Part shown: in pieces, positions 29,198 through 64,000 of the stretch | Numbering within the stretch: position 1 is the stretch's first letter | Layout of the letters: each line of letters opens with the position of its first letter | Translations under genes and position numbers: made by a program | Notes under the pieces: model-generated | The model's input: only the letters and a program-made list of their open reading frames with translations | Database searches by the model: none | What the model was told of the DNA's origin: nothing | NCBI GenBank assembly: GCA_951812995.1 | Contig: CATOTD010000014.1 | Location: 13,794 to 77,793, forward strand | DNA: 64,000 bases | DNA from: an uncultured Gammaproteobacteria bacterium | GTDB taxonomy: Bacteria > Pseudomonadota > Gammaproteobacteria > Eutrophobiales > Eutrophobiaceae | Direction of reading: 5' to 3'

Positions 29198-29216
29198 TCT
29201 ATTTCCATTGCTTTGC

Positions 29217-34553: not shown

Positions 34554-35861
34554 TCATAATCCTGAAAGTCCTTTCGTGTAAATATATAAGCGCCAGCTTG
34601 CAGACAATTGTGCCGAATCCGCATCGGCCAATTGCACCTCGCTGGTGGCCAGCTCACGGCTGGCATTCATCAGGTCAAGCCAGCTCTTGGAGCCGGCCAG
34701 AAACTGGCGCTCGTAGGATGCCTGTATCAACTGTGCAGAAGCCACGACTTGTTTTATGATCGCAACGCGCTTTTGTGATGCCTGTAACACGGCATAACTG
34801 TTGCGCACTTGTTCTTTGATAGCAAGGTGGGTGGCTCTGACTTGTGCCTCGGCGGATGCTAAAATCGCCTGAGCCTCGTTTATCCGACTCATAGTCGACA
34901 GCCCCGCACCAAACCGGCTTTGTAAACCAAAAAATACTCGGGAATCCGAGTCGGCATCGAGTCGCGTGAAGTTGCCTTTCTGGTGTTCCAGTCTGACAAA
35001 CACCTCCGGCCAATTATCGGCCTTGCGGGAACGGATGAGTGCCTTGGCGACCCGCGTTTCTTCCATTACCCTGCGCAATGACGGACTGGTTTGTTCGGCT
35101 TCGGCCAGGGCAGTCGTTATATCGGGTTCTGGCGGTAGCACTTGCGGCAATCTTTGCGCCAATCTCGCCTCAGCAAGTGGACTACCAAGTAATTGGCCAA
35201 GCTGCAATAGGGCCGTTTCACGCGATACACCGGCTAGCGCAATGTCAGCCTGTACCAGCTTAATGCGCTCATTGGCAAGTTCCAGATCACTCCTACTGGA
35301 GGCACCGGCCGCTACTCGGCGGGCAATTTTATCGCGCAGGCGTTGATGTTCTCTAACACTGCGTTGCCAAGCCTCATACCTGAACCAGGCAGAGAGCCAC
35401 CGACTGTAAGCCGCCACGATATCCAGCGACAACTGTAATTGTGCCTCGCCCAATGAGGCAAACGAGGCGTCCAACTGCGCCTGGGCTTGATCGAGGTCAG
35501 CACTGAGACGGCCGGCAGTCCAGATCGGTTGCTGAATACGCAATACAGTCACCATATCGTCGCCAGCATAATTGCCATCCGTAGCACTGGCATCGACCAG
35601 TTCCACAGATACGGATGGGGTCGGCCATAATTGCCATTTTGCCGATTGCACATTCGCCCGGGACTGTTCCATTCTGGCACGGGCTATATCTACCTGTGGT
35701 GCATCCGCGATACCCTCGCGCAACAATTCAGGCAATAGCTCCGTATCGTTGAATGCCATGCCAGGTGTCGGCACCAGCAATGTGAGCACGAACAACCACA
35801 AACATACGCACAGGCGACTCTGAAACGAGCACAACTGCGAGGTCATTATAAACATCTTCAT
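34554..35861 (-). CDS. TolC-family outer membrane channel (LapE/AggA-like)
   Basis: Signal peptide, WPTPSV, QPIWTAGRL, YERQFLAG.KSWLDLMNA.RE. In operon with the ABC and HlyD genes. Confidence 0.93.
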   Translation of the reverse strand: MKMFIMTSQLCSFQSRLCVCLWLFVLTLLVPTPGMAFNDTELLPELLREGIADAPQVDIARARMEQSRANVQSAKWQLWPTPSVSVELVDASATDGNYAGDDMVTVLRIQQPIWTAGRLSADLDQAQAQLDASFASLGEAQLQLSLDIVAAYSRWLSAWFRYEAWQRSVREHQRLRDKIARRVAAGASSRSDLELANERIKLVQADIALAGVSRETALLQLGQLLGSPLAEARLAQRLPQVLPPEPDITTALAEAEQTSPSLRRVMEETRVAKALIRSRKADNWPEVFVRLEHQKGNFTRLDADSDSRVFFGLQSRFGAGLSTMSRINEAQAILASAEAQVRATHLAIKEQVRNSYAVLQASQKRVAIIKQVVASAQLIQASYERQFLAGSKSWLDLMNASRELATSEVQLADADSAQLSASWRLYIYTKGLSGL

Positions 35862-43300: not shown

Positions 43301-46300
43301 GCCAAGGGTCTGTGCGTCGGCCTTGTTTAGATTGACATACACACCAGTCACGCCTGTTACATCAGCCGCAAGTCCGTTGGGTAAATCCGCCGCCACGATA
43401 TACGACACACCGGCGGCTGCTGCCGCCGCATACGAGGCTGTATCTGTGCCATCGCCGCCGTTGATTGTGTCGGCACCCGCGCCGCCGATAAGCGTGTCAT
43501 CACCCGCACCGCCGTCTAACCGGTTGGCATCATTATTGCCGATAAGCACATCGTCATGGATTGAGCCGATGAGGTTTTCGATACTTGAGAGTACATCGCC
43601 CGTGGCATCCGTGTTGCCAAGGGTCTGTGCGTCGGCCTTGTTTAGATTGACATACACACCAGTCACGCCTGTTACATCAGCCGCAAGTCCGTTGGGTAAA
43701 TCCGCCGCCACGATATACGACACACCGGCTGCTGTTGCCGCCGCATACGAGGCTGTATCTGTGCCATCGCCGCCGTTGATTGTGTCGGCACCCGCACCGC
43801 CGATAAGCGTGTCATCACCCGCACCGCCTTCGAGTACGTTGGCATCATTATTGCCGATAAGCACATCGGCCTGCGCAGAACCAATCAGGTTTTCGATATT
43901 GGAGAGTACATCGCCCGTGGCATCCGTGTTGCCAAGGGTCTGTGCACCAACCTTGTTTAGATTGACATACACGCCAGTTATGTCTACATCAGCCGCAAGC
44001 CCGTTGACTGCATCCGCCGCCACGGTGTACGACACACCGGCTGCTACCGCCGCCGCATACGAGGCTGTATCTGTGCCATCGCCGCCGTTGATTGTGTCGG
44101 CACCTGTGCCGCCGATAAGGTGGTCATCACCCGCACCGCCGATAAGGTGGTCATTGCCCGCACCACCGTCTAACCGGTTGACCCCAGCATTGCCGATAAG
44201 CACATCGTCATGGATTGAGCCGATGAGGTTTTCGATATTGGAGAGTACATCGCCCGTGGCATCCGTGTTGCCAAGGGTCTGTGCGTCGGCCTTGTTTAGA
44301 TTGACATACACACCAGTCACGCCTGTTACATCGGCCGCAAGTCCGTTGGGTAAATCCGCCGCCACGGTGTACGACACACCGGCTACTGCTGCCGCCGCAT
44401 ACGAGGCTGTATCTGTGCCATCGCCGCCGTTGATTGTGTCGGCACTCGCGCCGCCGATAAGCGTGTCATCACCCGCACCACCGCTAAGGTGGTCATCACC
44501 CGTGCCACCGATAAGGTGGTCATTGCCCGCACCGCCGTCTAACCGGTTGACCCCAGCATTGCCGATAAGCACATCGGCATGGATTGAGCCGATGAGGTTT
44601 TCGATATTGGAGAGTACATCGCCCGTGGCATCCGTGTTGCCAAGGGTCTGTGCGTCGGCCTTGTTTAGATTGACATACACACCAGTCACGCCTGTTACAT
44701 CAGCCGCAAGTCCGTTGGGTAAATCCGCCGCCACGGTGTACGACACACCGACTGCTACTGCCGCCGCATACGAGGCTGTATCTGTGCCATCGCCGCCGAT
44801 AAGGTGGTCATCACCCGTGCCACCGATAAGGTGGTCATTGCCCGCACCACCGTCTAACCGGTTGACCCCAGCATTACCGATAAGCACATCGTCATGGATT
44901 GAGCCGATGAGGTTTTCGATACTGGAGAGTACATCGCCCGTGGCATCCGTGTTGCCAAGGGTCTGTGCACCAGCCTTGTTTAGATTGACATACACACCAG
45001 TCACGCCCGTGACTTCGGCCGCAAGTCCGTTGGGTAAATCCGCCGCCACGGTGTACGACACACCGGCTGCTGCTGCCGCATACGAGGCTGTATCTGTGCC
45101 ATCGCCGCCGTTGATTGTGTCGGCACCCGCGCCGCCGATAAGCGTGTCATCACCCGCACCACCGCTAAGGTGGTCATCACCCGCGCCGCCGATAAGGTGG
45201 TCATTGCCCGCACCACCGTCTAACCGGTTGACCCCAGCATTGCCGATAAGCACATCGTCATGGATTGAGCCGATGAGGTTTTCGATATTGGAGAGTACAT
45301 CGCCCGTGGCATCCGTGTTGCCAAGGGTCTGTGCGTCGGCCTTGTTTAGATTGACATACACACCAGTCACGCCTGTTACATCGGCCGCAAGCCCATGGGT
45401 TGTATCTGCCGCCACGGTGTACGCCGCACCGATTGCCGCCGCCGCATACGAGGCTGTATCTGTGCCATCGCCGCCGTTGATTGTGTCGGCACCCGCGCCG
45501 CCGATAAGGTGGTCATCACCCGCACCGCCGATAAGGTGGTCATTGCCCGCACCACCGTCTAACCGGTTGACCCCAGCATTGCCGATAAGCACATCGTCAT
45601 GGATTGAGCCGATGAGGTTTTCGATATTGGAGAGTACATCGCCCGTGGCATCCGTGTTGCCAAGGGTCTGTGCGTCGGCCTTGTTTAGATTGACATACAC
45701 ACCAGTCACGCCTGTTACATCGGCCGCAAGTCCGTTGGGTAAATCCGCCGCCACGGTGTACGACACACCGGCTACTGCTGCCGCCGCATACGAGGCTGTA
45801 TCTGTGCCATCGCCGCCGTTGATTGTGTCGGCACCTGTGCCGCCGATAAGCGCGTCATCACCCGCACCGCCGCTAAGGTGGTCATCACCCGTGCCACCGA
45901 TAAGGTGGTCATTGCCCGCACCGCCGTCTAACCGGTTGACCCCAGCATTGCCGATAAGCACATCGTCATGGATTGAGCCGATGAGGTTTTCGATATTGGA
46001 GAGTACATCGCCCGTGGCATCCGTGTTGCCAAGGGTCTGTGCGTCGGCCTTGTTTAGATTGACATACACACCAGTCACGCCTGTTACATCGGCCGCAAGT
46101 CCGTTGGGTAAATCCGCCGCCACGGTGTACGACACACCGGCTACTGCTGCCGCCGCATACGAGGCTGTATCTGTGCCATCGCCGCCGTTGATTGTGTCGG
46201 CACTCGCGCCGCCGATAAGCGTGTCATCACCCGCACCACCGCTAAGGTGGTCATCACCCGTGCCACCGATAAGGTGGTCATTGCCCGCACCGCCGTCTAA

Positions 46301-49300
46301 CCGGTTGACCCCAGCATTGCCGATAAGCACATCGGCATGGATTGAGCCGATGAGGTTTTCGATATTGGAGAGTACATCGCCCGTGGCATCCGTGTTGCCA
46401 AGGGTCTGTGCGTCGGCCTTGTTTAGATTGACATACACACCAGTCACGCCTGTTACATCAGCCGCAAGTCCGTTGGGTAAATCCGCCGCCACGGTGTACG
46501 ACACACCGGCTGCTGCCGCCGCCGCATACGAGGCTGTATCTGTGCCATCGCCGCCGTTGATTGTGTCGGCACCCGCACCGCCGATAAGCGTGTCATCACC
46601 CGTGCCGCCGATAAGGTGGTCATCACCCGTGCCACCGATAAGGTGGTCATTGCCCGCACCACCGTCTAACCGGTTGACCCCAGCATTGCCGATAAGCACA
46701 TCGGCCTGCGCCGAACCAATCAGGTTTTCGATATTGGAGAGTACATCGCCCGTGGCATCCGTGTTGCCAAGGGTCTGTGCGTCGGCCTTGTTTAGATTGA
46801 CATACACGCCAGTCACGCCTGTTACATCAGCCGCAAGTCCATGGGTTGTATCTGCCGCCACGGTGTACGACACACCGGCTGCTGCTGCCGCCGCATACGA
46901 GGCTGTATCTGTGCCATCGCCGCCGTTGATTATGTCGGCACCTGTGCCGCCGATAAGCGTGTCATCACCCGCACCACCGCTAAGGTGGTCATCACCCGTG
47001 CCACCGATAAGGTGGTCATTGCCCGCGCCGCCGTCTAACCGGTTGACCCCAGCATTGCCGATAAGCACATCGGCATGGATTGAGCCGATGAGGTTTTCGA
47101 TACTGGAGAGTACATCGCCCGTGGCATCCGTGTTGCCAAGGGTCTGTGCGTCGGCCTTGTTTAGATTGACATACACACCAGTCACGCCTGTTACATCAGC
47201 CGCAAGTCCGTTGGGTAAATCCGCCGCCACGGTGTACGACACACCGACTGCTGCTACTGCCGCATACGAGGCTGTATCTGTGCCATCGCCGCCGTTGATT
47301 GTGTCGGCACCCGCGCCGCCGATAAGGTGGTCATTGCCCGCACCACCGTCTAACCGGTTGACCCCAGCATTGCCGATAAGCACATCGTCATGGATTGAGC
47401 CGATGAGGTTTTCGATATTGGAGAGTACATCGCCCGTGGCATCCGTGTTGCCAAGGGTCTGTGCGTCGGCCTTGTTTAGATTGACATACACACCAGTCAC
47501 GCCTGTTACATCGGCCGCAAGCCCATGGGTTGTATCTGCCGCCACGATATACGCCGCACCGATTGCCGCCGCCGCATACGAGGCTGTATCTGTGCCATCG
47601 CCGCCGTTGATTGTGTCATCACCCGCACCGCCGATAAGCGTGTCATCACCCGCACCGCCGCTAAGGTGGTCATCACCCGCGCCGCCGATAAGGTGGTCAT
47701 TGCCCGCACCACCGTCTAACCGGTTGACCCCAGCATTGCCGATAAGCACATCGTCATGGATTGAGCCGATGAGGTTTTCGATATTGGAGAGTACATCGCC
47801 CGTGGCATCCGTGTTGCCAAGGGTCTGTGCGTCGGCCTTGTTTAGATTGACATACACACCAGTCACGCCTGTTACATCAGCCGCAAGTCCGTTGGGTAAA
47901 TCCGCCGCCACGGTGTACGACACACCGGCTGCTGCTGCCGCCGCATACGAGGCTGTATCTGTGCCATCGCCGCCGTTGATTGTGTCGGCACCCGCGCCGC
48001 CGATAAGCGTGTCATCACCCGCACCGCCGTCTAACCGGTTGGCATCATTATTGCCGATAAGCACATCGTCATGGATTGAGCCGATGAGGTTTTCGATACT
48101 TGAGAGTACATCGCCCGTGGCATCCGTGTTGCCAAGGGTCTGTGCGTCGGCCTTGTTTAGATTGACATACACACCAGTCACGCCTGTTACATCAGCCGCA
48201 AGTCCGTTGGGTAAATCCGCCGCCACGATATACGACACACCGGCTGCTGCTGCCGCCGCATACGAGGCTGTATCTGTGCCATCGCCGCCGTTGATTGTGT
48301 CGGCACCCGCCCCGCCGATAAGCGTGTCATCACCCGTGCCGCCGATAAGGTGGTCATCACCCGCGCCACCGATAAGGTGGTCATTGCCCGCACCACCGTC
48401 TAACCGGTTGACCCCAGCATTGCCGATAAGCACATCGTCATGGATTGAGCCGATGAGGTTTTCGATATTGGAGAGTACATCGCCCGTGGCATCCGTGTTG
48501 CCAAGGGTCTGTGCGTCGGCCTTGTTTAGATTGACATACACACCAGTCACGCCTGTTACATCAGCCGCAAGTCCATGGGTTGTATCTGCCGCCACGGTGT
48601 ACGACACACCGGCTACTGCCGCCGCCGCATACGAGGCTGTATCTGTGCCATCGCCGCCGTTGATTGTGTCGGCACCCGCGCCGCCGATAAGGTGGTCATT
48701 GTCCGCGCCGCCGATAAGGTGGTCATTGCCCGCGCCGCCGATAAGGTGGTCATTGCCCGCACCACCGTCTAACCGGTTGACCCCAGCATTGCCGATAAGC
48801 ACATCGTCATGGATTGAGCCGATGAGGTTTTCGATATTGGAGAGTACATCGCCCGTGGCATCCGTGTTGCCAAGGGTCTGTGCGTCGGCCTTGTTTAGAT
48901 TGACATACACACCAGTCACGCCTGTTACATCAGCCGCAAGTCCGTTGGGTAAATCCGCCGCCACGGTGTACGACACACCGGCTGCTGCCGCCGCCGCATA
49001 CGAGGCTGTATCTGTGCCATCGCCGCCGTTGATTGTGTCGGCACCCGCGCCGCCGATAAGCGTGTCATTACCCGCACCGCCGTCTAACCGGTTGACCCCA
49101 GCATTGCCGATAAGCACATCGGCCTGCGCCGAACCAATCAGGTTTTCGATATTGAACAAGATATCGCCTGCCGCCCAGCCGTTAGCATTTTTGCTATTGT
49201 CGGATAAGTCTACGGTTATGCCGTTGCCGTCATCGGCAGTGGCATAACTCACGGTATCTGCGCCGCCCTTGCCATCGATAAGGTCGGCATCGGCGGTGGC

Positions 49301-52300
49301 GGCATAGTTATTGTTGGTGTCATCGCCAATAGTCGCGGCGGCGTTGACGTTCACCCGGTGTACCGTGGCGGTGGAGGCGTTATCGTCCTTGTCGGTCAGC
49401 ACGATTGAAAATTCGCGCACGCGGTCGGTGGCATTTTGTGCATCGGCGTTTTGGTAACGCAAGGTAGCGAGGATGGCCTCGACCTCAATGGTCGTTAAGT
49501 TGCCGCCGTTTTTGCTAAGGGTAATGGTGCCGACAGTATTATCCCAGACAATGTTAAGGCCGGTGATACCGGCAATGGTCACGTTGTTCGCGCTGGCATT
49601 GACCCCGCCTATCGCAAGTACCTGGACATTACCCATGGCATCACTACCATAGGCCAGTTGTTCGTTGCTGTCATCCAGACCCGTTGCGGTAATGGTAATC
49701 GTGCTTATCGTTGCCGGGATTGGCAGTTCGATGACCTGTATGCCGGCATCACTATAACTCGCGACAAAGGCGTAGGCCTTGTTGTTGATCTCCGCCGTGG
49801 TGATCTTGAAGGCACCTCGCAGTTCGGTGTAGCCATCCGCGCCATCGACAAGTGCGGCCACCGCAGTCGGGTTTGCAGGATCAGTGATGTCGATCACCTG
49901 CACCGCATGCTCATCGTAGCCGGTCACCAGGGCATAGGTACGACCGGCAATGACTGTGGTGGTGATAGCGTAGGCACTCCGCAACGCGGTGTAGGGGCTG
50001 TCGGCCTGAACGCTGTCATCAAACAATGCGGCGACCGCAGTCGGGGTCTCGGGCGTTGTGATGTCAATAATCTGCACGCCGTGATCCAAACTGGCGGCGA
50101 CCAGCGCATAGGTCTTGCCGTCTATCACCACCGTGGTGATGGAATATGCGCTATTGAGGGCGGTATAAGGCGTATTAGCCCCCGACGTGTTGTCAGTTAT
50201 CGCGGCAACCGCGCTTGGGGCCGCGGGCGTTGTGATGTCGATAATCTGTACCCCGTCATCCGCACTGGCGGCAACCAGCGCGTAGGTCCTGCCCTTAATC
50301 ACCACCGTGGTAATGCCAGCCGCACCATCAAGCTCGGTGTAAGGCGTATTAACCAGCACCGTGTTGTCAGTAATGGCCGCGACCGCAGTCGGGGCGGCGG
50401 GCGTTGTGATGTCAATAATCTGCACCCCGTCATCGGTACTGGCGGCGACCAGCGCATAGGTCTTGCTACCTATCACCACCGTGGTGATGTCGCGGGCACC
50501 ATTAAGCTCGGTGTAAAGCGTATTAGCCAGCACCGTGCTGTCAGCAATGGCCGCGACCGCGCTCGGGGCCGTGGGATCGGTGCTGATGTCGAGTATTTGC
50601 ACCCCGTCATCCTCATAGGCGGCCACCAGTGCATAGGTCACACCACCGATGACCACGGTGGTGATGGCTTCTGGATCATTCAGCTCCAGCAGGTTGGTAT
50701 CGACTATACTGCCTATCTGCTCAGCTTCAGTCGGGTCGCTCACGTCTATCAACTGTACGCTATCGCCTGTACCCGTGGCGACCAGCAGATAGGTCTTGCC
50801 ACCAATGACCACAGTGCTCAGGGCACTCGGGGCTGTCAGCGAAAATTGGGCGGAGCCATCGTGATCATCAGACCCATGAGCATAGGCAGCGGTGGCGGTT
50901 GGGGTCTGGAGCGCGGCATTATCACCGACTGTTGCCTTGACACCCAAAACCACGCCAGCAGTCAGTGCCGCGGTGTTGAGTATGCTGTAGGGCGTTTGTA
51001 GTGCCAGAGTTGGCGGGATAGCGTAGATAAAATGATCGTCCGTCAAGTCATTCTCCAACACCCCGGTCAGCGTGATGGTGCCGGTAGGAGTGGTAATGAC
51101 TGTATTGCCACTGTCATCATCATCCGTTGCGTCCTGCACAGCTTTCAGGTTGGTAAAACCAGCAATGGCGGACAAATCGATTTTATTATTACCGGTGGTA
51201 AAATCAGCAATAGTGTCTGCGCCATGACCTGGGGCAAAGACAAAGGTATCATTACCCGCACCGCCGGTTAAGGTGTCATTGCCCGCACCGCCTTCGAGTA
51301 CGTTGGCATCATTATTGCCGACCAGTACATCGTTATGCGCCGAACCAATCAGGTTTTCGATATTGGAGAGTACATCGCCCGTGGCATCCGTGTTGCCAAG
51401 GGTCTGTGCACCAGCCTTGTTTAGATTGACATACACACCAGTCACGCCCGTGACACGAGCCGCAAGCCCATGGGTTGTATCTGCCGCCACGATATACGCC
51501 GCACCGATTGCCGCCGCCGCATACGAGGCTGTATCTGTGCCATCGCCGCCGTTGATTGTGTCGGCACCCGCGCCGCCGATAAGCGTGTCATCACCCGCAC
51601 CGCCGCTAAGGTGGTCATCACCCGTGCCACCGATAAGGTGGTCATTGCCCGCGCCGCCGTCTAACCGATTGACCCCAGCATTGCCGATAAGCACATCGTC
51701 ATGGATTGAGCCGATGAGGTTTTCGATATTGGAGAGTACATCGCCCGTGGCATCCGTGTTGCCAAGGGTCTGTGCGTCGGCCTTGTTTAGATTGACATAC
51801 ACACCAGTCACGCCTGTTACATCGGCCGCAAGTCCATGGGTTGTATCTGCCGCCACGGTGTACGACACACCGGCTGCTGCTGCCGCCGCATACGAGGCTG
51901 TATCTGTGCCATCGCCGCCGTTGATTGTGTCGGCACCCGCGCCGCCGATAAGGTGGTCATTGTCCGCGCCGCCGATAAGGTGGTCATTGCCCGCGCCGCC
52001 GATAAGGTGGTCATTGCCCGCACCGCCGTCTAACCGGTTGACCCCAGCATTGCCGATAAGCACATCGTCATGGATTGAGCCGATGAGGTTTTCGATATTG
52101 GAGAGTACATCGCCCGTGGCATCCGTGTTGCCAAGGGTCTGTGCACCAGCCTTGTTTAGATTGACATACACACCAGTCACGCCTGTTACATCAGCCGCAA
52201 GCCCGTTGGGTAAATCCGCCGCCACGGTGTACGACACACCGGCTGCTGCCGCCGCCGCATACGAGGCTGTATCTGTGCCATCGCCGCCGTTGATTGTGTC

Positions 52301-55300
52301 GGCACCTGCGCCGCCGATAAGCGTGTCATTACCATCGCTACCGTCCAGGGTATCATCACCCGCGCCGCCGTCTAGGGTATCATCACCCGCGCCGCCGGTA
52401 AGCCGGTTGTCATACTCATCGCCGGTTAAGGTGTCGGCGTAGCCGGTACCGATCAGTTTTTCGATATTGAACAAGATATCGCCTGCCGCCCAGCCGTTGG
52501 CATTTTTGCTATTGTCGGATAAGTCCACGGTTACGCCGTTGCCGTCATCGGCAGTGGCATAACTCACGGTATCTGCGCCGCCCTTACCATCGATAAGGTC
52601 GGCATCGGCGGTGGCGGCATAGTTATTGTTGGTGTCATCGCCAATAGTCGCGGCGGCGTTGACGTTCACCCGGTATACCGTGGGGGTGGAGTCTAGCCCG
52701 TCGGTGTCGGTCAAGACAATCGAGAATAACCGGTCGCCATTGGTGGCATTTTGCGCATCGGCATTTTGGTAACGTAAGGCAGCGAGGATGGCCTCGACCT
52801 CAATGGTCGTTAAGTTGCCGCCGTTTTTGCTAAGGGTAATGGTGCCGACAGTATTATCCCAGACAATGTTAAGGCCGGTGATACCGGCAATGGTCACGTT
52901 GTTCGCGCTGGCATTGACCCCGCCTATCGCAAGTACCTGGACATTACCCATGGCATCACTACCATAGGCCAGTTGTTCGTTGCTGTCATCCAGACCCGTT
53001 GCGGTAATGGTAATCGTGCTTATCGTCGCCGGGATTGGCAGTTCGATGACCTGTATGCCGCGATCACTATAACTCGCGACAAAGGCGTAGGCCTTGTTGT
53101 TGATCTCCGCCGTGGTGATCTTGAAGGCACCTGCGAGTTCGGTGTAGCCATCCACCCCATCTCTGAGTGCGGCGACCGCAGTCGGGTTTGCAGGATCGGT
53201 GATGTCGATCACCTGCACCGCATTATCACCGTAGCCGGTCACCAGGGCATAGGTACGACCGGCAATGACTGTGGTGGTGATAGCGTAGGCACGCCTCAAC
53301 GCGGTGTAGGGGCTGTCGGTCTGACCTGCCACACTGTTATCAAACAATGCGGCGACCGCAGTCGGGGTCTCGGGCGTTGTGATGTCAATAATCTGTACCC
53401 CGTGATCTACATTGGCGGCGACCAGCGCATAGGTCTTGCCTTTAATCACCACCGTGGTGATGGAATATGCGCCATTGAGTGCGGTATAAGGCGTATTAGC
53501 CCCCGACGTGTTGTCAGTTATCGCGGCAACCGCGCTTGGGGTCGCGGGCGTTGTGATGTCGATAATCTGTACCCCGTCATCCGCACTGGCGGCAACCAGC
53601 GCGTAGGTCCTGCCCTTAATCACCACCGTGGTAATGCCAGCCGCACCATCAAGCTCGGTGTAAGGCGTATTAACCAGCACCGTGTTGTCAGTAATGGCCG
53701 CGACCGCAGTCGGGGCGGCGGGCGTTGTGATGTCAATAATCTGCACCCCGTCATCGGTACTGGCGGCGACCAGCGCATAGGTCTTGCTACCTATCACCAC
53801 CGTGGTGATGTCGCGGGCACCATTAAGCTCGGTGTAAAGCGTATTAGCCAGCACCGTGCTGTCAGCAATGGCCGCGACCGCGCTCGGGGCCGTGGGATCG
53901 GTGCTGATGTCGAGTATTTGCACCCCGTCATCCTCATAGGCGGCCACCAGTGCATAGGTCACACCACCGATGACCACGGTGGTGATGGCTTCTGGATCAT
54001 TCAGCTCCAGCAGGTTGGTATCGACTATACTGCCTATCTGCTCAGCTTCAGTCGGGTCGCTCACGTCTATCAACTGTACGCTATCGCCTGTACCCGTGGC
54101 GACCAGCAGATAGGTCTTGCCACCAATGACCACAGTGCTCAGGGCACTCGGGGCTGTCAGCGAAAATTGGGCGGAGCCATCGTGATCATCAGACCCATGA
54201 GCATAGGCAGCGGTGGCGGTTGGGGTCTGGAGCGCGGCATTATCACCGACTGTTGCCTTGACACCCAAAACCACGCCAGCAGTCAGTGCCGCGGTGTTGA
54301 GTATGCTGTAGGGCGTTTGTAGTGCCAGAGTTGGCGGGATAGCGTAGATAAAATGATCGTCCGTCAAGTCATTCTCCAACACCCCGGTCAGCGTGATGGT
54401 GCCGGTAGGAGTGGTAATGACTGTATTGCCACTGTCATCATCATCCGTTGCGTCCTGCACAGCTTTCAGGTTGGTAAAACCAGCAATGGCGGACAAATCG
54501 ATTTTATTATTACCGGTGGTAAAATCAGCAATAGTGTCTGCGCCATGACCTGGGGCAAAGACAAAGGTATCATTACCCGCACCGCCGGTTAAGGTGTCAT
54601 TGCCCGCACCGCCTTCGAGTACGTTGGCATCATTATTGCCGACCAGTACATCGTTATGCGCCGAACCAATCAGGTTTTCGATATTGGAGAGTACATCGCC
54701 CGTGGCATCCGTGTTGCCAAGGGTCTGTGCACCAGCCTTGTTTAGATTGACATACACACCAGTCACGCCCGTGACTTCGGCCGCAAGTCCGTTGGGTAAA
54801 TCCGCCGCCACGGTGTACGACACACCGGCTGCTACCGCCGCCGCATACGAGGCTGTATCTGTGCCATCGCCGCCGTTGATTATGTCGGCACCCGCGCCGC
54901 CGATAAGCGTGTCATCACCCGTGCCGCCGATAAGGTGGTCATCACCCGTGCCGCCGTCCAGCCGATTGACTCCAGCATTGCCGATAAGCACATCGGCCTG
55001 CGCCGAACCAATCAGGTTTTCGATATTGGAGAGTGTATCGCCCTGCGCGTCAGTCGTCACGGTGTTGTCCGCATTAGTCGTCTGTGCACCAGTCTTGTTT
55101 AGATTGACATACACACCAGTCACGCCCGTGACTTCGGCCGCAAGCCCATGGGTTGTATCTGCCGCCACGGTGTACGACACACCGGCTGCTGCCGCCGCCG
55201 CATACGAGGCTGTATCTGTGCCATCGCCGCCGTTGATTGTGTCGGCACCCGCGCCGCCGTTGATTGTGTCATCACCCGCACCACCGATAAGCGTGTCATC

Positions 55301-58300
55301 ACCCGTGCCGCCGATAAGGTGGTCATTGCCCGCACCGCCGTCTAACCGGTTGACCCCAGCATTGCCGATAAGCACATCGGCCTGCGCCGAACCAATCAGG
55401 TTTTCGATATTGGAGAGTACATCGCCCGTGGCATCCGTGTTGCCAAGGGTCTGTGCGTCGGCCTTGTTTAGATTGACATACACACCAGTCACGCCTGTTA
55501 CATCAGCCGCAAGTCCGTTGGGTAAATCCGCCGCCACGATATACGACACACCGGCTGCTGCTGCCGCCGCATACGAGGCTGTATCTGTGCCATCGCCGCC
55601 GTTGATTGTGTCGGCACCCGCGCCGCCGATAAGCGTGTCATTACCCGCACCACCGATAAGGTGGTCATCACCCGTGCCACCGATAAGGTGGTCATTGCCC
55701 GCACCACCGTCTAACCGGTTGACCCCAGCATTGCCGATAAGCACATCGTCATGGATTGAGCCGATGAGGTTTTCGATATTGGAGAGTACATCGCCCGTGG
55801 CATCCGTGTTGCCAAGGGTCTGTGCACCAGCCTTGTTTAGATTGACATACACACCAGTCACGCCTGTTACATCAGCCGCAAGCCCGTTGGGTAAATCCGC
55901 CGCCACGATATACGACACACCGGCTGCTGCTGCCGCCGCATACGAGGCTGTATCTGTGCCATCGCCGCCGTTGATTGTGTCGGCACCCGCGCCGCCGATA
56001 AGCGTGTCATTACCCGCACCGCCGTCTAACCGGTTGACCCCAGCATTGCCGATAAGCACATCGGCCTGCGCCGAACCAATCAGGTTTTCGATATTGAACA
56101 AGATATCGCCTGCCGCCCAGCCGTTAGCATTTTTGCTATTGTCGGATAAGTCTACGGTTATGCCGTTGCCGTCATCGGCAGTGGCATAACTCACGGTATC
56201 TGCGCCGCCCTTGCCATCGATAAGGTCGGCATCGGCGGTGGCGGCATAGTTATTGTTGGTGTCATCGCCAATAGTCGCGGCGGCGTTGACGTTCACCCGG
56301 TGTACCGTGGCGGTGGAGGCGTTATCGTCCTTGTCGGTCAGCACGATTGAAAATTCGCGCACGCGGTCGGTGGCATTTTGTGCATCGGCGTTTTGGTAAC
56401 GTAAGGTAGCGAGGATGGCCTCGACCTCAATGGTCGTTAAGTTGCCGCCGTTTTTGCTAAGGGTAATGGTGCCGACAGTATTATCCCAGACAATGTTAAG
56501 GCCGGTGATACCGGCAATGGTCACGTTGTTCGCGCTGGCATTGACCCCGCCTATCGCAAGTACCTGGACATTACCCATGGCATCACTACCATAGGCCAGT
56601 TGTTCGTTGCTGTCATCCAGACCCGTTGCGGTAATGGTAATCGTGCTTATCGTCGCCGGGATTGGCAGTTCGATGACCTGTATGCCGCGATCACTATAAC
56701 TCGCGACAAAGGCGTAGGCCTTGTTGTTGATCTCCGCCGTGGTGATCTTGAAGGCATCTCGCAGTTCGGTGTAGCCATCCACCCCATCTCTGAGTGCGGC
56801 GACCGCAGTCGGGTTTGCAGGATCGGTGATGTCGATCACCTGCACTGCATTATCACCGTAGCCTGCAACCAAGGCATAGGTACGACCGGCAATGACTGTG
56901 GTGGTAATAGCGTCGGCAGTCCGCAGCGCGGTGTAGGGGCTGTCGGCCTGAACGCTGTCATCAAACAATGCGGCGACCGCAGTCGGGGTCTCGGGCGTTG
57001 TGATGTCAATAATCTGTACCCCGTGATCTACATTGGCGGTGACCAGCGCATAGGTCTTGCCTTTAATCACCACCGTGGTGATGGAATATGCGCCATTGAG
57101 TGCGGTATAAGGCGTATTAGCCCCCGACGTGTTGTCAGTTATCGCGGCAACCGCGCTTGGGGCCGCAGGCGTTGTGATGTCGATAATCTGTACCCCGTCA
57201 TCCGCACTGGCGGCAACCAGCGCGTAGGTCCTGCCTTTAATCACCACCGTGGTAATGCCAACCGCACCATCAAGCTCGGTGTAGTCGGTGAGCGCGCCCG
57301 CCGTGCTGTCAGTAATGGCCGCGGTCGCGATCGGGGCCGTGGGTGTGGTGATGTCAATAATCTGCACCCCGTCATCGGTACTGGCGGCAACCAGCGCATA
57401 GGTCTTGCTGCCTATCACCACCGTGGTAATGCCAGTCGCACCATCAAGCTGGGTGTAGTCGGTGGGCGCGGCCGTCGTGCTGTCAGCAATGGCCGCGACC
57501 GCGCTCGGGGCCGTGGGATCGGTGCTGATGTCGAGTATTTGCACCCCGTCATCAGCAACAGCAGCCACCAGCGCATAGGTCACACCGCCGATGACCACGG
57601 TGGTGATGGCGAACGGGTTGTTGAGTTCTCGATCGGCGGCATTAGCAATGCTACCGATCTGCTCGGCTTCAGTCGGGTCGCTCACGTCTATCAACTGTAC
57701 GCTATCGCCTGTACCCGTGGCGACCAGCAGATAGGTCTTGCCACCAATGACCACAGTGCTCAGGGCACTCGGGGCTGTCAGCGAAAATTGGGCGGAGCCA
57801 TCGTGATCATCAGACCCATGAGCATAGGCAGCGGTGGCGGTTGGGGTCTGGAGCGCGGCATTATCACCGACTGTTGCCTTGACACCCAAAACCACGCCAG
57901 CAGTCAGTGCCGCGGTGTTGAGTATGCTGTAGGGCGTTTGTAGTGCCAGAGTTGGCGGGATAGCGTAGACAAAATGATCGTCCGTCAAGTCATTCTCCAA
58001 CACCCCGGTCAGCGTGATGGTGCCGGTAGGAGTGGTAATGACTGTATTGCCACTGTCATCATCATCCGTTGCGTCCTGCACAGCTTTCAGGTTGGTAAAA
58101 CCAGCAATGGCGGACAAATCGATTTTATTATTACCGGTGGTAAAATCAGCAATAGTGTCTGCGCCATGACCTGGGGCAAAGACAAAGGTATCATTACCCG
58201 CACCGCCGGTTAAGGTGTCATTGCCCGCACCGCCTTCGAGTACGTTGGCATCATTATTGCCGACCAGTACATCGTTATGCGCCGAACCAATCAGGTTTTC

Positions 58301-61300
58301 GATATTGGAGAGTACATCGCCCGTGGCATCCGTGTTGCCAAGGGTCTGTGCACCAGCCTTGTTTAGATTGACATACACACCAGTCACGCCCGTGACACGA
58401 GCCGCAAGCCCATGGGTTGTATCTGCCGCCACGATATACGCCGCACCGATTGCTGCCGCCGCATACGAGGCTGTATCTGTGCCATCGCCGCCGTTGATTG
58501 TGTCGGCACCTGTGCCGCCGATAAGCGCGTCATCACCCGCACCGCCGCTAAGGTGGTCATCACCCGTGCCACCGATAAGGTGGTCATTGCCCGCACCACC
58601 GTCTAACCGGTTGACCCCAGCATTGCCGATAAGCACATCGGCCTGCGCCGAACCAATCAGGTTTTCGATATTGGAGAGTACATCGCCCGTGGCATCCGTG
58701 TTGCCAAGGGTCTGTGCGTCGGCCTTGTTTAGATTGACATACACACCAGTCACGCCTGTTACATCAGCCGCAAGTCCATGGGTTGTATCTGCCGCCACGG
58801 TGTACGACACACCGGCTACTGCCGCCGCCGCATACGAGGCTGTATCTGTGCCATCGCCGCCGTTGATTGTGTCGGCACCCGCGCCGCCGATAAGGTGGTC
58901 ATTGTCCGCGCCGCCGATAAGGTGGTCATTGCCCGCGCCGCCGATAAGGTGGTCATTGCCCGCACCGCCGTCTAACCGATTGACCCCAGCATTGCCGATA
59001 AGCACATCGTCATGGATTGAGCCGATGAGGTTTTCGATATTGGAGAGTACATCGCCCGTGGCATCCGTGTTGCCAAGGGTCTGTGCACCAGCCTTGTTTA
59101 GATTGACATACACACCAGTCACGCCTGTTACATCAGCCGCAAGCCCGTTGGGTAAATCCGCCGCCACGGTGTACGACACACCGGCTGCTGCCGCCGCCGC
59201 ATACGAGGCTGTATCTGTGCCATCGCCGCCGTTGATTGTGTCGGCACCTGCGCCGCCGATAAGCGTGTCATTACCATCGCTACCGTCCAGGGTATCATCA
59301 CCCGCGCCGCCGTCTAGGGTATCATCACCCGCGCCGCCGGTAAGCCGGTTGTCATACTCATCGCCGGTTAAGGTGTCGGCGTAGCCGGTACCGATCAGTT
59401 TTTCGATATTGAACAAGATATCGCCTGCCGCCCAGCCGTTGGCATTTTTGCTATTGTCGGATAAGTCTACATTCACGCCGTTGCCGTCATCGGCAGTGGC
59501 ATAACTCACGGTATCTGCGCCGCCCTTGCCATCGATAAGGTCGGCATCGGCGGTGGCGGCATAGTTATTGTTGGTGTCATCGCCAATAGTCGCGGCGGCG
59601 TTGACATTCACCCGGTGTACCGTGGGGGTGGAGTCTAGCCCGTCGGTGTCGGTCAAGACAATCGAGAATAACCGGTCGCCATTGGTGGCATTTTGCGCAT
59701 CGGCGTTTTGGTAACGCAAGGCAGCGAGGATGGACTCGACCTCAATGGTCGTTAAGTTGCCGCCGTTTTTGCTAAGGGTAATGGTGCCGACAGTATTATC
59801 CCAGACAATGTTAAGGCCGGTGATACCGGCAATGGTTACGTTGTTCGCGCTGGCATTGACCCCGCCTATCGCAAGTACCTGGACATTACCCATGGCATTA
59901 CTACCATAGGCCAGTTGTTCGTTGCTGTCATCCAGACCCGTTGCGGTAATGGTAATCGTGCTTATCGTTGCCGGGATTGGCAGTTCGATGACCTGTATGC
60001 CGCGATCACTATAACTCGCGACAAAGGCGTAGGCCTTGTTGTTGATCTCCGCCGTGGTGATCTTGAAGGCACCTGCGAGTTCGGTGTAGCCATCCACCCC
60101 ATCTCTGAGTGCGGCGACCGCAGTCGGGTTTGCAGGATCGGTGATGTCGATCACCTGCACCGCATTATCACCGTAGCCGGTCACCAGGGCATAGGTACGA
60201 CCGGCAATGACTGTGGTGGTGATAGCGTAGGCACGCCTCAACGCGGTGTAGGGGCTGTCGGTCTGACCTGCCACACTGTTATCAAACAATGCGGCGACCG
60301 CAGTCGGGGTCTCGGGCGTTGTGATGTCAATAATCTGTACCCCGTGATCTACATTGGCGGCGACCAGCGCATAGGTCTTGCCTTTAATCACCACCGTGGT
60401 GATGGAATATGCGCTATTGAGGGCGGTATAAGGCGTATTAGCCCCCGACGTGTTGTCAGTTATCGCGGCAACCGCGCTTGGGGCCGCGGGCGTTGTGATG
60501 TCGATAATCTGTACCCCGTCATCCGCACTGGCGGCAACCAGCGCGTAGGTCCTGCCCTTAATCACCACCGTGGTAATGCCAGCCGCACCATCAAGCTCGG
60601 TGTAAGGCGTATTAACCAGCACCGTGTTGTCAGTAATGGCCGCGACCGCAGTCGGGGCGGCGGGCGTTGTGATGTCAATAATCTGCACCCCGTCATCGGT
60701 ACTGGCGGCGACCAGCGCATAGGTCTTGCTACCTATCACCACCGTGGTGATGTCGCGGGCACCATTAAGCTCGGTGTAAAGCGTATTAGCCAGCACCGTG
60801 CTGTCAGCAATGGCCGCGACCGCGCTCGGGGCCGTGGGATCGGTGCTGATGTCGAGTATTTGCACCCCGTCATCCTCATAGGCGGCCACCAGTGCATAGG
60901 TCACACCACCGATGACCACGGTGGTGATGGCTTCTGGATCATTCAGCTCCAGCAGGTTGGTATCGACTATACTGCCTATCTGCTCGGCTTCAGTCGGGTC
61001 GCTCACGTCTATCAACTGTACGCTATCGCCTGTACCCGTGGCGACCAGCAGATAGGTCTTGCCACCAATGACCACAGTGCTCAGGGCACTCGGGGCTGTC
61101 AGCGAAAATTGGGCGGAGCCATCGTGATCATCAGACCCATGAGCATAGGCAGCGGTGGCGGTTGGGGTCTGGAGCGCGGCATTATCACCGACTGTTGCCT
61201 TGACACCCAAAACCACGCCAGCAGTCAGTGCCGCGGTGTTGAGTATGCTGTAGGGCGTTTGTAGTGCCAGAGTTGGCGGGATAGCGTAGATAAAATGATC

Positions 61301-64000
61301 GTCCGTCAAGTCATTCTCCAACACCCCGGTCAGCGTGATGGTGCCGGTAGGAGTGGTAATGACTGTATTGCCACTGTCATCATCATCCGTTGCGTCCTGC
61401 ACAGCTTTCAGGTTGGTAAAACCAGCAATGGCGGACAAATCGATTTTATTATTACCGGTGGTAAAATCAGCAATAGTGTCTGCGCCATGACCTGGGGCAA
61501 AGACAAAGGTATCATTACCCGCACCGCCGGTTAAGGTGTCATTGCCCGCACCGCCTTCGAGTACGTTGGCATCATTATTGCCGACCAGTACATCGTTATG
61601 CGCCGAACCAATCAGGTTTTCGATATTGGAGAGTACATCGCCCGTGGCATCCGTGTTGCCAAGGGTCTGTGCACCAGCCTTGTTTAGATTGACATACACA
61701 CCAGTCACGCCCGTGACACGAGCCGCAAGCCCATGGGTTGTATCTGCCGCCACGATATACGCCGCACCGATTGCTGCCGCCGCATACGAGGCTGTATCTG
61801 TGCCATCGCCGCCGTTGATTGTGTCGGCACCCGCGCCGCCGATAAGCGTGTCATCACCCGCACCGCCGCTAAGGTGGTCATTGCCCGTGCCGCCGTCCAG
61901 CCGATTGACTCCAGCATTGCCGATAAGCACATCGGCCTGCGCCGAACCAATCAGGTTTTCGATATTGGAGAGTGTATCGCCCTGCGCGTCAGTCGTCACG
62001 GTGTTGTCCGCATTAGTCGTCTGTGCACCAGTCTTGTTTAGATTGACATACACACCAGTCACGCCCGTGACTTCGGCCGCAAGCCCATGGGTTGTATCTG
62101 CCGCCACGGTGTACGACACACCGGCTGCTGCCGCCGCCGCATACGAGGCTGTATCTGTGCCATCGCCGCCGTTGATTGTGTCGGCACCCGCCCCGCCGAT
62201 AAGCGTGTCATCACCCGTGCCGCCGATAAGGTGGTCATCACCCGTGCCACCGATAAGGTGGTCATTGCCCGCACCACCGTCTAACCGGTTGACCCCAGCA
62301 TTGCCGATAAGCACATCGGCCTGCGCCGAACCAATCAGGTTTTCGATATTGGAGAGTACATCGCCCGTGGCATCCGTGTTGCCAAGGGTCTGTGCGTCGG
62401 CCTTGTTTAGATTGACATACACACCAGTCACGCCTGTTACATCAGCCGCAAGTCCATGGGTTGTATCTGCCGCCACGGTGTACGACACACCGGCTACTGC
62501 CGCCGCCGCATACGAGGCTGTATCTGTGCCATCGCCGCCGTTGATTGTGTCGGCACCCGCACCGCCGATAAGCGTGTCATTACCCGCACCACCGCTAAGG
62601 TGGTCATCACCCGCGCCACCGATAAGGTGGTCATTGCCCGCACCACCGTCTAACCGGTTGACCCCAGCATTGCCGATAAGCACATCGTCATGGATTGAGC
62701 CGATGAGGTTTTCGATATTGGAGAGTACATCGCCCGTGGCATCCGTGTTGCCAAGGGTCTGTGCGTCGGCCTTGTTTAGATTGACATACACACCAGTCAC
62801 GCCTGTTACATCAGCCGCAAGCCCGTTGGGTAAATCCGCCGCCACGGTGTACGACACACCGGCTGCTACTGCCGCCGCATACGAGGCTGTATCTGTGCCA
62901 TCGCCGCCGTTGATTGTGTCGGCACCCGCGCCGCCGATAAGCGTGTCATTACCCGCACCGCCGTCTAACCGGTTGACCCCAGCATTGCCGATAAGCACAT
63001 CGGCCTGCGCCGAACCAATCAGGTTTTCGATATTGAACAAGATATCGCCTGCCGCCCAGCCGTTAGCATTTTTGCTATTGTCGGATAAGTCTACGGTTAT
63101 GCCGTTGCCGTCATCGGCAGTGGCATAACTCACGGTATCTGCGCCGCCCTTGCCATCGATAAGGTCGGCATCGGCGGTGGCGGCATAGTTATTGTTGGTG
63201 TCATCGCCAATAGTCGCGGCGGCGTTGACGTTCACCCGGTGTACCGTGGCGGTGGAGGCGTTATCGTCCTTGTCGGTCAGCACGATTGAAAATTCGCGCA
63301 CGCGGTCGGTGGCATTTTGCGCATCGGCGTTTTGGTAACGTAAGGTAGCGAGGATGGCCTCGACCTCAATGGTCGTTAAGTTGCCGCCGTTTTTGCTAAG
63401 GGTAATGGTGCCGACAGTATTATCCCAGACAATGTTAAGGCCGGTGATACCGGCAATGGTCACGTTGTTCGCGCTGGCATTGACCCCGCCTATCGCAAGT
63501 ACCTGGACATTACCCATGGCATCACTACCATAGGCCAGTTGTTCGTTGCTGTCATCCAGACCCGTTGCGGTAATGGTAATCGTGCTTATCGTCGCCGGGA
63601 TTGGCAGTTCGATGACCTGTATGCCGCGATCACTATAACTCGCGACAAAGGCGTAGGCCTTGTTGTTGATCTCCGCCGTGGTGATCTTGAAGGCATCTCG
63701 CAGTTCGGTGTAGCCATCCACCCCATCTCTGAGTGCGGCGACCGCAGTCGGGTTTGCAGGATCGGTGATGTCGATCACCTGCACTGCATTATCACCGTAG
63801 CCTGCAACCAAGGCATAGGTACGACCGGCAATGACTGTGGTGGTAATAGCGTCGGCAGTCCGCAGCGCGGTGTAGGGGCTGTCGGCCTGAACGCTGTCAT
63901 CAAACAATGCGGCGACCGCAGTCGGGGTCTCGGGCGTTGTGATGTCAATAATCTGTACCCCGTGATCTACATTGGCGGTGACCAGCGCATAGGTCTTGCC
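40379..64000 (-). CDS. Giant RTX adhesin with LVIVD-type beta-propellers, Ig-like domains and hemolysin-type Ca-binding repeats (5' end outside window, at least 7873 aa)
   Basis: Frame stays open from 63907 to the window edge ([16 protein letters not shown]..), so the TTG start is artificial. Many GGxGxDxLx repeats. C-terminus NYFEVI. Upstream of the T1SS operon. Confidence 0.95.
40700..49150 (-). repeat. Array of 24 RTX units (about 315-369 bp each)
   Basis: Counted 24 GDVLS(N/S)IENLIGS motifs. Unit length varies mainly by 27-bp nonapeptide steps. Confidence 0.88.
49150..64000 (-). repeat. Higher-order repeat of alternating 3321- and 3621-bp modules (about 6.94-kb period)
   Basis: Identical shadow ORFs at 51032, 54353, 57974 and 61295. 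Propeller blocks at about 49721-50830, 53036-54150, 56663-57772, 59978-61093 and 63602-end. Confidence 0.92.

What the first reader, a model, noticed from the sequence alone, without database searches (positions are those of the whole stretch)
49150..64000. Giant RTX adhesin whose modules appear to display a 7-bladed LVIVD propeller inserted inside an Ig-like domain
Seen: each module runs [14 protein letters not shown], then seven repeats of ITTVVIxxxTYALVA..[11 protein letters not shown], then [33 protein letters not shown], then RTX units. The flanking segments read like the two halves of one adhesin extender domain, split by the propeller. At least five propellers are spaced along the stalk. 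Known: most RTX adhesins carry inert extenders with ligand-binding domains only near the C-terminus. Inference: a multivalent bead-on-string adhesin of unusual architecture, possibly for host or matrix binding.
Basis: partly seen in the sequence, partly recalled or inferred. Interest (0 to 1): 0.7.

Follow-up and report, generated by a model that had tools for sequence, protein, structure and literature searches.

The report
Giant adhesin with ten plug-in propellers
A 16,169-codon bacterial gene encodes a calcium-binding repeat protein, likely a secreted surface adhesin, that carries ten predicted seven-bladed propellers, each likely plugged into a split stalk domain; the plug-in design is known from other adhesins, but this head and its tenfold repetition were not found in the papers searched.

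Summary
The window holds the distal half (minus strand, 40379-64000) of an open 16,169-codon gene upstream of TolC/ABC/HlyD type I secretion genes. It shows four complete modules and one partial; the gene has ten, the genome 36. Each is a ~36-aa lead, seven blades (AlphaFold: seven-bladed propeller; weak LVIVD and EPTP scores) and a ~125-aa sandwich piece. That piece matches the rear three quarters of a widespread, uninterrupted Ig-like domain (HHalign 97.8%), so nesting is likely (about 0.85). It is not shown: the module model left the lead unplaced and two of four homology tests of the lead failed. Split domains that project binding heads are published for RTX adhesins; a propeller head was not found in the papers read. 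Not found described: the repeated unit is a whole adhesin end (cap, split domain with head, beta-roll); the last 2,986 residues carry no head; propeller top-face positions are variable and aromatic-rich; ~50%-identical propellers are expanded in Nitrosopumilus genomes. The ligand is unknown. The scan noted this unit in a paralog of this genome and the propeller-in-split-domain design in eight other genomes. Verdict: new variant of a known kind.

The parts
40379..64000 (-). Distal 7,873 residues of a 16,169-aa RTX adhesin-like gene; it starts outside the window, near window coordinate 88,888
63602..64000 (-). Last three blades of propeller 6 of 10 (cut by the window end)
63221..63601 (-). Rear piece of the host Ig-like domain, module 6
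61529..63220 (-). RTX run, 564 aa, five ~100-120-aa blocks
61280..61528 (-). Internal cap unit; 53-54% identical over 94-96 aa to the natural C-termini of two related adhesins
61172..61279 (-). Lead segment (likely front piece of the host domain), module 7
   Evidence: not placed in the model
59978..61171 (-). Seven-bladed propeller, module 7 (398 aa; the modelled copy)
59597..59977 (-). Rear piece of the host Ig-like domain, module 7
58208..59596 (-). RTX run, 463 aa, four blocks
56282..58207 (-). Cap (57959-58207), lead (57851-57958), propeller (56663-57850) and rear piece (56282-56662) of module 8
52655..54586 (-). Cap (54338-54586), lead (54230-54337), propeller (53036-54229) and rear piece (52655-53035) of module 9
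49340..51265 (-). Cap (51017-51265), lead (50909-51016), propeller (49721-50908) and rear piece (49340-49720) of module 10, the last
40382..49339 (-). Propeller-free C-terminal 2,986 aa: 25 RTX blocks and the likely secretion signal
36015..39737 (-). 1,240-aa RTX protein with a related N-terminal domain
34554..35861 (-). TolC-family outer-membrane protein
32433..34550 (-). Type I secretion ABC permease/ATPase; best model LssB-type TIGR03375, 594 bits, below its cut-off of 693
31288..32427 (-). HlyD-family type I secretion adaptor (TIGR01843, 273.5 bits, cut-off 208.65)

Best explanation
The gene encodes a 16,169-residue RTX repeat protein that is likely exported by the neighbouring type I secretion system and likely held on the cell as an adhesin, with ten predicted seven-bladed propellers, each likely inserted into a loop of a small Ig-like stalk domain so that its variable top face would point outward and bind a ligand. 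Shown in sequence: the repeats, the order of parts, the secretion genes, and the homology of the rear piece to an uninterrupted domain. Predicted: the propeller fold and its closure by an N-terminal strand, which brings both propeller ends to the bottom face. Inferred: export C-terminus first; calcium-driven folding of the RTX rolls; anchoring by the BapA-like N-terminal domain without LapG release; re-pairing of lead and rear piece into one sandwich; binding through the d-a and b-c loops; avidity from ten heads of several surface types. The gene likely grew by repeated duplication of a whole adhesin end (cap, split domain with head, beta-roll), not of plain extenders. Step odds: secreted surface protein 0.95, propeller 0.98, nested 0.85, heads bind a ligand 0.75, ligand is from an animal host 0.35.
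For: Secretion: TolC, ABC and HlyD genes follow on the same strand; Big_13 extenders score 102.6 bits with 9 stretches. Propeller: AlphaFold mean pLDDT 84.6, pTM 0.83, 28 propeller strands in residues 40-433; Foldseek best hit LGI1 EPTP, TM 0.84 by target; 56 of 74 homologous blade arrays of five or more blades are exact multiples of seven. Binding face: among 122 distinct blades, positions da-2, bc2, bc3 and da-5 are the most variable of the core (3.2-3.7 bits), and da-2 and bc2 are 27% and 42% aromatic against at most 2% at any a-b or c-d loop position; 153 blades from other organisms show the same (33%, 35%, at most 5%). Growth by ends: an internal cap is 53-54% identical to natural C-termini of P0082 and P0015.
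Against: The module model left residues 1-34 unplaced (pLDDT <50) while the rear piece folded without them. An HMM of the uninterrupted front parts did not pick out this genome's leads (median 1.0 against 3.3 bits for other windows), and HHalign ranked the lead windows 29th, 64th and 70th of 199. The 66 domains include tandem paralogs, so its P value overstates. The retention domain scores under its cut-offs (16.1/27 and 21.7/35). pN/pS is 1.0-1.4 in top loops among 62 close pairs but also 0.93 in the bottom a-b turn, and pairs are not independent, so positive selection is not shown. VIA-align ties LGI1 with dozens of unrelated seven-bladed propellers (Z 32-35). The propeller also occurs in 77 environmental metagenome loci, in many as one copy behind a signal-like leader, so it is not confined to symbionts. 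No ligand, expression or localisation data.
Confidence: 0.65

Rival explanations
1. Sequential beads: the lead is a linker, the rear piece folds alone as a shortened sandwich, and propeller and sandwich simply follow each other.
For: The rear piece reached pLDDT 71-94 without the lead, which stayed unplaced; two searches found no specific homology of the lead.
Against: The rear piece lacks the first ~45 positions that are part of the fold in uninterrupted relatives; the lead keeps the family's opening P-x-L-x-L pattern and its length, and moves with the module across organisms.
Confidence: 0.13
2. The propellers are bulk, not receptors: a thick, calcium-stiffened coat that spaces cells or shields them from phagocytes or phage, with top loops drifting neutrally or varying to escape recognition.
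For: pN/pS near 1 fits relaxed selection; heads are missing from the distal 2,986 residues, where adhesins usually carry them (bioRxiv 10.1101/2025.09.30.679566, passages); the family is expanded to dozens of units in some archaeal genomes.
Against: Exposed aromatic residues are concentrated at two top-face positions in two separate sets of blades; published split domains serve to project binding sites (PMC10865825, passages).
Confidence: 0.15
3. The propeller is a symmetric lectin with one sugar site per blade, formed by the invariant Tyr, Gln, Thr and Asp, as in seven-bladed lectins (recalled); the variable top face is secondary.
For: Tyr b2 and Gln c2 are invariant in 122 of 122 blades and Asp bc4 is in 103; most known split-domain heads are carbohydrate-binding modules.
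Against: No lectin propeller is among the 50 listed rows of either fold search; the invariant residues sit in strands and may be structural.
Confidence: 0.12
4. The propellers are surface enzymes for scavenging (phosphatase, lactonase or lyase type).
For: Weak scores to choice-of-anchor I (47.7 bits, cut-off 300) and a haloalkylphosphorus hydrolase (E 0.05); ESM Atlas first hit is a lactonase/WD40 cluster at 0.90.
Against: Blades are near-identical repeats and the residues around the top face change from copy to copy; no blade-specific conserved polar set.
Confidence: 0.04
5. The module count is inflated by misassembly of repeats.
For: Neighbouring units are 98.4% identical; no reads were laid.
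Against: No two super-repeat copies are identical (88 mismatches); modules range from 58 to 99% identity within the gene; the frame is open for 16,183 codons.
Confidence: 0.04

Closest known systems
Split Ig-like domains projecting ligand-binding domains in RTX adhesins (AhLap, FrhA, MpIBP; PMC12077191, PMC10865825, bioRxiv 10.1101/2025.09.30.679566)
   Same: Type I-secreted RTX protein with N-terminal anchor-like domain and Ig extenders; a head with adjacent ends likely budding from an Ig-like domain; several heads per chain (six CBMs in Ab3a); internal beta-roll/T1SS-like units have precedent (Ab2).
   Different: The head is a ~400-aa seven-bladed propeller, not a CBM, PBD, vWFA or beta-roll; the host domain has no Pfam family and no close solved relative (best Z 7.8; AhLap 9CSE Z 5.7); ten heads alternate with RTX runs over ~10,700 residues; the distal 2,986 residues have none.
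LVIVD repeat (Pfam PF08309; Adindla 2004, PMC2447325)
   Same: Tandem beta-repeats of surface proteins; 21 of 21 modules score at E <= 0.1, best 2.7e-23.
   Different: Blade period 52-60 aa against 42; weak score in the window's copy; here inside an RTX protein.
EPTP/EAR propeller of human LGI1 (PF03736; PMC5906670)
   Same: Secreted seven-bladed propeller closed by an N-terminal strand; best Foldseek hit (TM 0.84 by target); EPTP model passes its cut-off; LGI1 binds its receptor at the rim of the central channel.
   Different: 11-13% identity; VIA-align does not set it above WD40 and other propellers; no disulfides here; no shared ligand implied.
LVIVD/EPTP domains of sponge-associated Thaumarchaeota (Haber 2021, PMC7848895)
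   Same: That paper found LVIVD in three sponge symbionts and EPTP in one, and neither in the free-living genomes compared. The closest homologues of this propeller (45-55%) are in Nitrosopumilus and Cenarchaeum records, and the one family scores on both models.
   Different: The archaeal propellers stand in tandem or singly, without the host domain (1 of 52 genome loci has it, the bacterial L018). I did not check that the paper's proteins are this family. Single copies also occur in environmental metagenomes.
BapP of Pseudoalteromonas tunicata (bioRxiv 10.1101/2024.10.22.619756)
   Same: Calcium-dependent biofilm adhesin carrying a predicted propeller, with knockout evidence.
   Different: One five-bladed N-terminal propeller, not nested; 1,600 aa; beta-sandwich repeats rather than RTX runs.

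Membership tests
RTX adhesin | RTX nonapeptide repeats | tested here: met
   PF00353 165 bits in one unit, 123 bits at the C-terminus; 201 pattern matches in the gene
RTX adhesin | Type I secretion genes for export | tested here: met
   TolC, ABC and HlyD genes downstream on the same strand; export itself not tested
RTX adhesin | Tandem Ig-like extenders | tested here: met
   Big_13 102.6 bits, 9 stretches, in residues ~515-2520
RTX adhesin | N-terminal retention module | tested here: inconclusive
   BapA_N 16.1 bits (cut-off 27) and NF033677 21.7 (cut-off 35); the domain is shared by paralogs
RTX adhesin | C-terminal beta-roll followed by a secretion signal | tested here: inconclusive
   RTX repeats run to ~80 residues from the end and the tail resembles those of the paralogs; no secretion-signal model scored
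RTX adhesin | Surface retention and adhesion | not testable with these tools
   needs cells or protein
LapA-type (LapG-released) adhesins | LapG protease in the genome | tested here: not met
   PF06035: 0 matches in G000, 99% complete; 1 of 14 control genomes rang
Split domain with projected head | Rear piece is an incomplete member of an otherwise uninterrupted Ig-like domain family | tested here: met
Split domain with projected head | Front piece upstream of the insert is homologous to the missing part | tested here: inconclusive
   negative; positive
Split domain with projected head | Both pieces pack into one domain in three dimensions | tested here: inconclusive
   residues 1-34 unplaced in a model built on 21 paralogs
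Split domain with projected head | The insert binds a ligand | not testable with these tools
   only indirect sequence evidence
LVIVD repeat PF08309 | Score above the Pfam gathering cut-off | tested here: met
   28.6 against 20.2 bits, no single stretch passing; 21 of 21 modules match
LVIVD repeat PF08309 | Repeat of about 42 residues | tested here: not met
   blade spacing 52-60 residues
EPTP repeat PF03736 | Score above the Pfam gathering cut-off | tested here: inconclusive
   27.5 against 21 bits in the window's module, but only 7 of 21 modules match at E <= 0.1
Pore-forming RTX toxins (HlyA type) | Whole-protein match beyond the repeats | tested here: not met
   NF033943 126 bits against a cut-off of 1000, best stretch in the repeat region; tested on one 1,107-aa unit and the C-terminal 373 aa, no match in residues 15-2520

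The most novel reading that the evidence does not exclude
This propeller is a binding scaffold exchanged between archaea and bacteria and amplified separately in each recipient genome, 35 copies here and dozens in some Nitrosopumilus genomes, with a few aromatic-rich top-face positions varied like an antibody or DARPin library. The giant adhesins would then display a repertoire for recognising an animal host such as a sponge, and would unite the 'LVIVD' and 'EPTP' signals reported from sponge symbionts in one family.
Probability: 0.25. Interest if true: 0.8.

Novelty: new variant of a known kind. Interest (0 to 1): 0.52.

Why it matters
It adds a large new kind of head, a seven-bladed propeller, to the split-domain catalogue of RTX adhesins, and shows a way of building a giant adhesin by repeating the binding end rather than the extenders. 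It gives a bench-sized target: a ~400-aa propeller with four mapped variable positions per blade and many natural variants. About 5.7% of this genome goes to six reading frames that carry the module, none of 22 congeners searched has it, and the closest propellers are archaeal. That points to gene exchange and strong selection in one niche. If the heads recognise a host, they would make symbiont-host recognition directly testable; if they are only a coat, the finding is a tidy extension of a known design.

Tried and rejected
AlphaFold on the module with 21 paralogs gave the propeller and rear piece but no verdict on nesting. The tool alignment of modules with 33 uninterrupted domains scattered ~28 residues of each front part into the propeller, so it was not folded; the second job went to an uninterrupted domain. 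The complex predictor, meant to test lead against rear piece, was not available; no result. The ESM Atlas look-up of the rear piece did not complete. Sequence searches of the PDB found nothing useful for module or host domain. Pfam has no family for the host domain (0 of 9 sequences over a cut-off), and the fold searches found no close solved relative; that does not show a new fold. A word-index search with the rear piece found only P0153 (this genome) and P0154; one with L075's domain found two near-copies; a metagenome scan with the rear piece found none of 175 candidates related. Promoter and terminator scans matched shuffled counts (15 against 14.8; 12 against 10.4). The two-blade module (P0153) was rejected as a natural minimal variant, since it lies in a start-less fragment beside a transposase-like frame. 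'Sponge-specific' was rejected as a statement about the whole propeller family. Eukaryote mimicry of LGI1 was not adopted. Positive selection was not claimed. Graham et al. 2024 (Proteins 92:933), which defines split domains, is not held and could list a propeller head; I saw only its citation. Supplements were not read, and those of the bioRxiv preprints are closed.
Full report
Observation. The finding lies on the minus strand, in a frame open from the window's right end to a stop at 40379. The window is G000:C14:13794-77793. In the contig the frame is 16,183 codons from stop to stop; from the first Met the protein is 16,169 aa, 1.61 MDa. The whole gene has ten modules. Its order is: an N-terminal domain with sub-threshold BapA-prefix scores; about 2,000 residues of Ig-like extenders (Big_13, 102.6 bits); ten times cap, lead, propeller, rear piece and an RTX run of one to nine blocks; then 2,986 residues with 25 RTX blocks and no propeller. 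Downstream on the same strand are a 1,240-aa RTX protein and TolC, ABC and HlyD genes. No LapG was found in the 99%-complete genome. The two copies of the 6.9-kb super-repeat in the window differ at 88 of 6,047 bases, and modules within the gene are 58-99% identical, which argues against a collapsed or doubled assembly. The organism was not identified; the lgt-thyA-folA and apaG-apaH genes fit a gammaproteobacterium (recalled).

The propeller. AlphaFold on 21 paralogous modules gave mean pLDDT 84.6 and pTM 0.83, with 28 strands in residues 40-433: one N-terminal strand, then seven blades, the last lacking its outer strand. That is the closure described for LGI1 (PMC5906670, passages), and it puts both ends on one face. 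Foldseek ranks LGI1 EPTP first (E 8e-15, TM 0.84 by target, 11% identity). VIA-align ties Lp49, WD40 proteins and LGI1 at Z 32-35, so the fold is a general seven-bladed propeller. A separate count agrees: of 89 blade arrays in the 52 named loci, 74 have five or more blades and 56 of those are exact multiples of seven. Pfam gives LVIVD 28.6 bits (cut-off 20.2) and EPTP 27.5 (cut-off 21), neither with a stretch passing alone; 21 of 21 modules match LVIVD and 7 of 21 EPTP. Blade spacing is 52-60 residues, not 42. 'LVIVD/EPTP-like' is the fair label.

Nesting, for. All 36 rear pieces in the genome directly follow a last blade. A profile of them finds, in 6 of 399 other genomes of the class and in P0154, domains with no blades upstream and a short front part in their place. 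A profile of eight such domains matches 40 of 400 genomes, a count that includes G000 and the unpublished G075. From 28 of its 30 loci (the own and the unpublished one left out) I took 37 full-length domains, 33 after removing near-copies. HHalign pairs positions 46-161 of 164 of this family with the rear piece (97.8%, E 8e-13). An uninterrupted member folds as one beta-sandwich at pLDDT 87, front part included; it is Ig-like with no close solved relative (best Z 7.8; AhLap split-domain entry 9CSE Z 5.7). So the rear piece lacks about 45 positions that belong to the fold. A 33-45-aa lead sits before each propeller. It opens with the family's P-x-L-x-L pattern and follows different neighbours: an Ig domain in the Arenicellales adhesin L018, and here a cap that is 53-54% identical to natural C-termini of P0082 and P0015 and so is complete in itself. 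In P0082, a model built only from uninterrupted domains and a model of this genome's leads both score the same spot best among about 550 windows. A global profile of the leads ranks the true junction in the top 10% for 22 of 66 uninterrupted domains and the top 5% for 16 (paralogs are not independent).

Nesting, against. The module model left residues 1-34 at pLDDT under 50. The HMM of uninterrupted front parts did not pick out any of this genome's 36 leads and was best at the true spot in only 1 of 5 outside proteins. HHalign ranked the lead windows 29th, 64th and 70th of 199. No model of the two pieces together could be had. I put nesting at about 0.85.

The likely binding face. By the usual propeller geometry (recalled) the d-a and b-c loops form the top face, opposite the ends. 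Among 122 distinct blades of this genome, the most variable core positions are da-2, bc3, da-5 and bc2 (3.2-3.7 bits), set between near-invariant residues. Two of them are often aromatic (da-2 27%, bc2 42%), against at most 2% at any a-b or c-d loop position. 153 blades from 147 other proteins show the same (33%, 35%, at most 5%). pN/pS among the 62 closest module pairs is 1.42 in the b-c loop and 1.03 at the end of the d-a loop, against 0.05-0.42 in strands, 0.16 in the c-d loop and 0.38-0.44 in the host pieces; the a-b turn gives 0.93. This fits a varied binding surface but does not show positive selection.

Distribution. The module was found in 0 of 60 relatives, 22 of them congeners; the N-terminal domain in 0 of 22 congeners; the propeller in 2 of 400 other genomes of the phylum, at 26-31% identity. 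This genome has 36 modules (35 full, one of two blades) in six reading frames that cover 172.5 kb, 5.7% of the assembly. The best outside matches, at 37-55% identity, are 46 loci from 12 Nitrosopumilus, Nitrosopumilaceae, Cenarchaeum and marine group I records and six bacterial loci. In the genus of G440, 23 of 151 genomes match; 19 of the 23 are 1.9 Mb or larger, against 2 of the 20 non-matching genomes listed. There the propellers stand in tandem without the host domain. The nested form is rare: 5 of the top 150 representatives (three on contigs of one length, so probably one genome), 1 of 52 genome loci and 0 of 77 metagenome loci. In a quick tree of 45 propellers (14 of this genome's 35; 31 of 34 outside seven-blade units), this genome's copies fall on one side of a branch (SH-aLRT 97), and the copies of two archaeal genomes cluster likewise; this fits separate expansions, but no root or donor was tested. 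Haber et al. (PMC7848895, section 20 read) report LVIVD in three sponge-symbiotic Thaumarchaeota and EPTP in one, and neither in the free-living genomes compared. Yet environmental metagenomes hold many single copies behind signal-like leaders. A link to sponges is therefore a lead for the expansions, not for the family, and this genome's habitat was not determined.

How it likely works. The chain would leave through the adjacent type I system C-terminus first, fold as calcium binds the RTX rolls, and stay anchored by its N-terminal domain; this follows the RTX adhesin model (bioRxiv 10.1101/2025.09.30.679566, passages and sections 21 and 23). Ten propellers would bud sideways from split domains along the middle two thirds, top faces outward, and bind with avidity. 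The internal caps suggest growth by duplicating a whole adhesin end. L018 and P0058 show the simple state, one module near the C-terminus.

What is known. Split domains that project heads are described in PMC12077191 and PMC10865825 (passages) and surveyed over 35 adhesins in the preprint above, with CBM, vWFA, PBD, beta-roll and unknown heads, and six CBMs in one protein. 'Propeller' has 0 occurrences in each main text. Searches for 'RTX adhesin'+'split domain', 'LVIVD'+'propeller', 'LVIVD'+'sponge', 'beta-propeller'+'RTX adhesin', a four-term sponge/giant-protein query, 'EPTP'+'symbiont'+'eukaryotic-like' and 'LVIVD' alone listed no paper that, by title, abstract start or the passages read, describes this architecture; BapP has one N-terminal five-bladed propeller (passages). 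Of Adindla 2004 I saw the abstract. Graham 2024 was not available. Earlier notes of this scan describe the same unit in the C3 paralog, without stating nesting, and propellers in split domains in eight other genomes; these are unchecked and are not used as support.

Verdict. A real feature and a new variant of a known kind: it works like a split-domain RTX adhesin, with an undescribed head, host domain and layout. Interest 0.52. The ligand and the packing of the two host pieces are the open tests.

Noticed in passing
G000:C14:102892-139565 (L003, L004), upstream of the window's gene: A tandem paralog with 13 modules. Its 477-codon N-terminal frame and its 11,748-codon body are out of frame near C14:138135; a real frameshift or an assembly error.
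   Followed up: partly
G000:C14:140386-142551 (L004:18753-19547, P0153): A start-less 722-aa fragment with a module of only two blades between lead and rear piece, beside a transposase-like frame.
   Followed up: partly
G000:C3:153125-208229 and C9:39558-71327: Three more giant genes (14,744, 3,522 and 10,590 codons) with 8, 2 and 2 modules; in the C9 gene the two modules follow each other without an RTX run between them.
   Followed up: partly
G000:C2:664889-686578, C6:143859-169736, C6:170412-211043: Further frames of 7,230, 8,626 and 13,544 codons without blade or RTX motifs; not examined.
   Followed up: no
L021-L029, L034-L039 and others (G440): One Nitrosopumilus genome of 2.1 Mb has many proteins made almost wholly of these propellers, up to about ten in tandem; 303 overlapping matches from 150 of 193 candidates scored.
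   Followed up: partly
L018:7304-13807: The Arenicellales adhesin carries, after the nested module, a segment that reads like an SGNH/GDSL esterase (motifs recalled, not tested).
   Followed up: no
L131-L171: In environmental metagenome contigs the propeller is often a single domain right after a signal-peptide-like leader, or at the C-terminus.
   Followed up: partly
L088-L117: The uninterrupted ~140-170-aa host domain is common (about one in ten genomes of the class), often tandem, and has no Pfam family and no close solved structure.
   Followed up: partly
window 40554-49247 (+) and 49658-63128 (+): Long plus-strand frames up to 2,897 aa are shadows of the repetitive minus-strand gene, not genes.
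   Followed up: partly
window 5292-8222, 17419-18150, 29217-30146: Insertion-sequence debris: Mutator/IS256-type pieces, a DDE_Tnp_1 transposase and an IS1595-family transposase.
   Followed up: no
window 15545-16117: A PhoH-like frame covering only positions 2-82 of the 205-position model, just before transposase pieces; probably interrupted.
   Followed up: no
window 26426-30146: A lower-GC stretch (37-44%) with a DUF4143 AAA ATPase, a histidine-kinase-like fragment and IS1595, next to the secretion genes; possibly the edge of an island.
   Followed up: no
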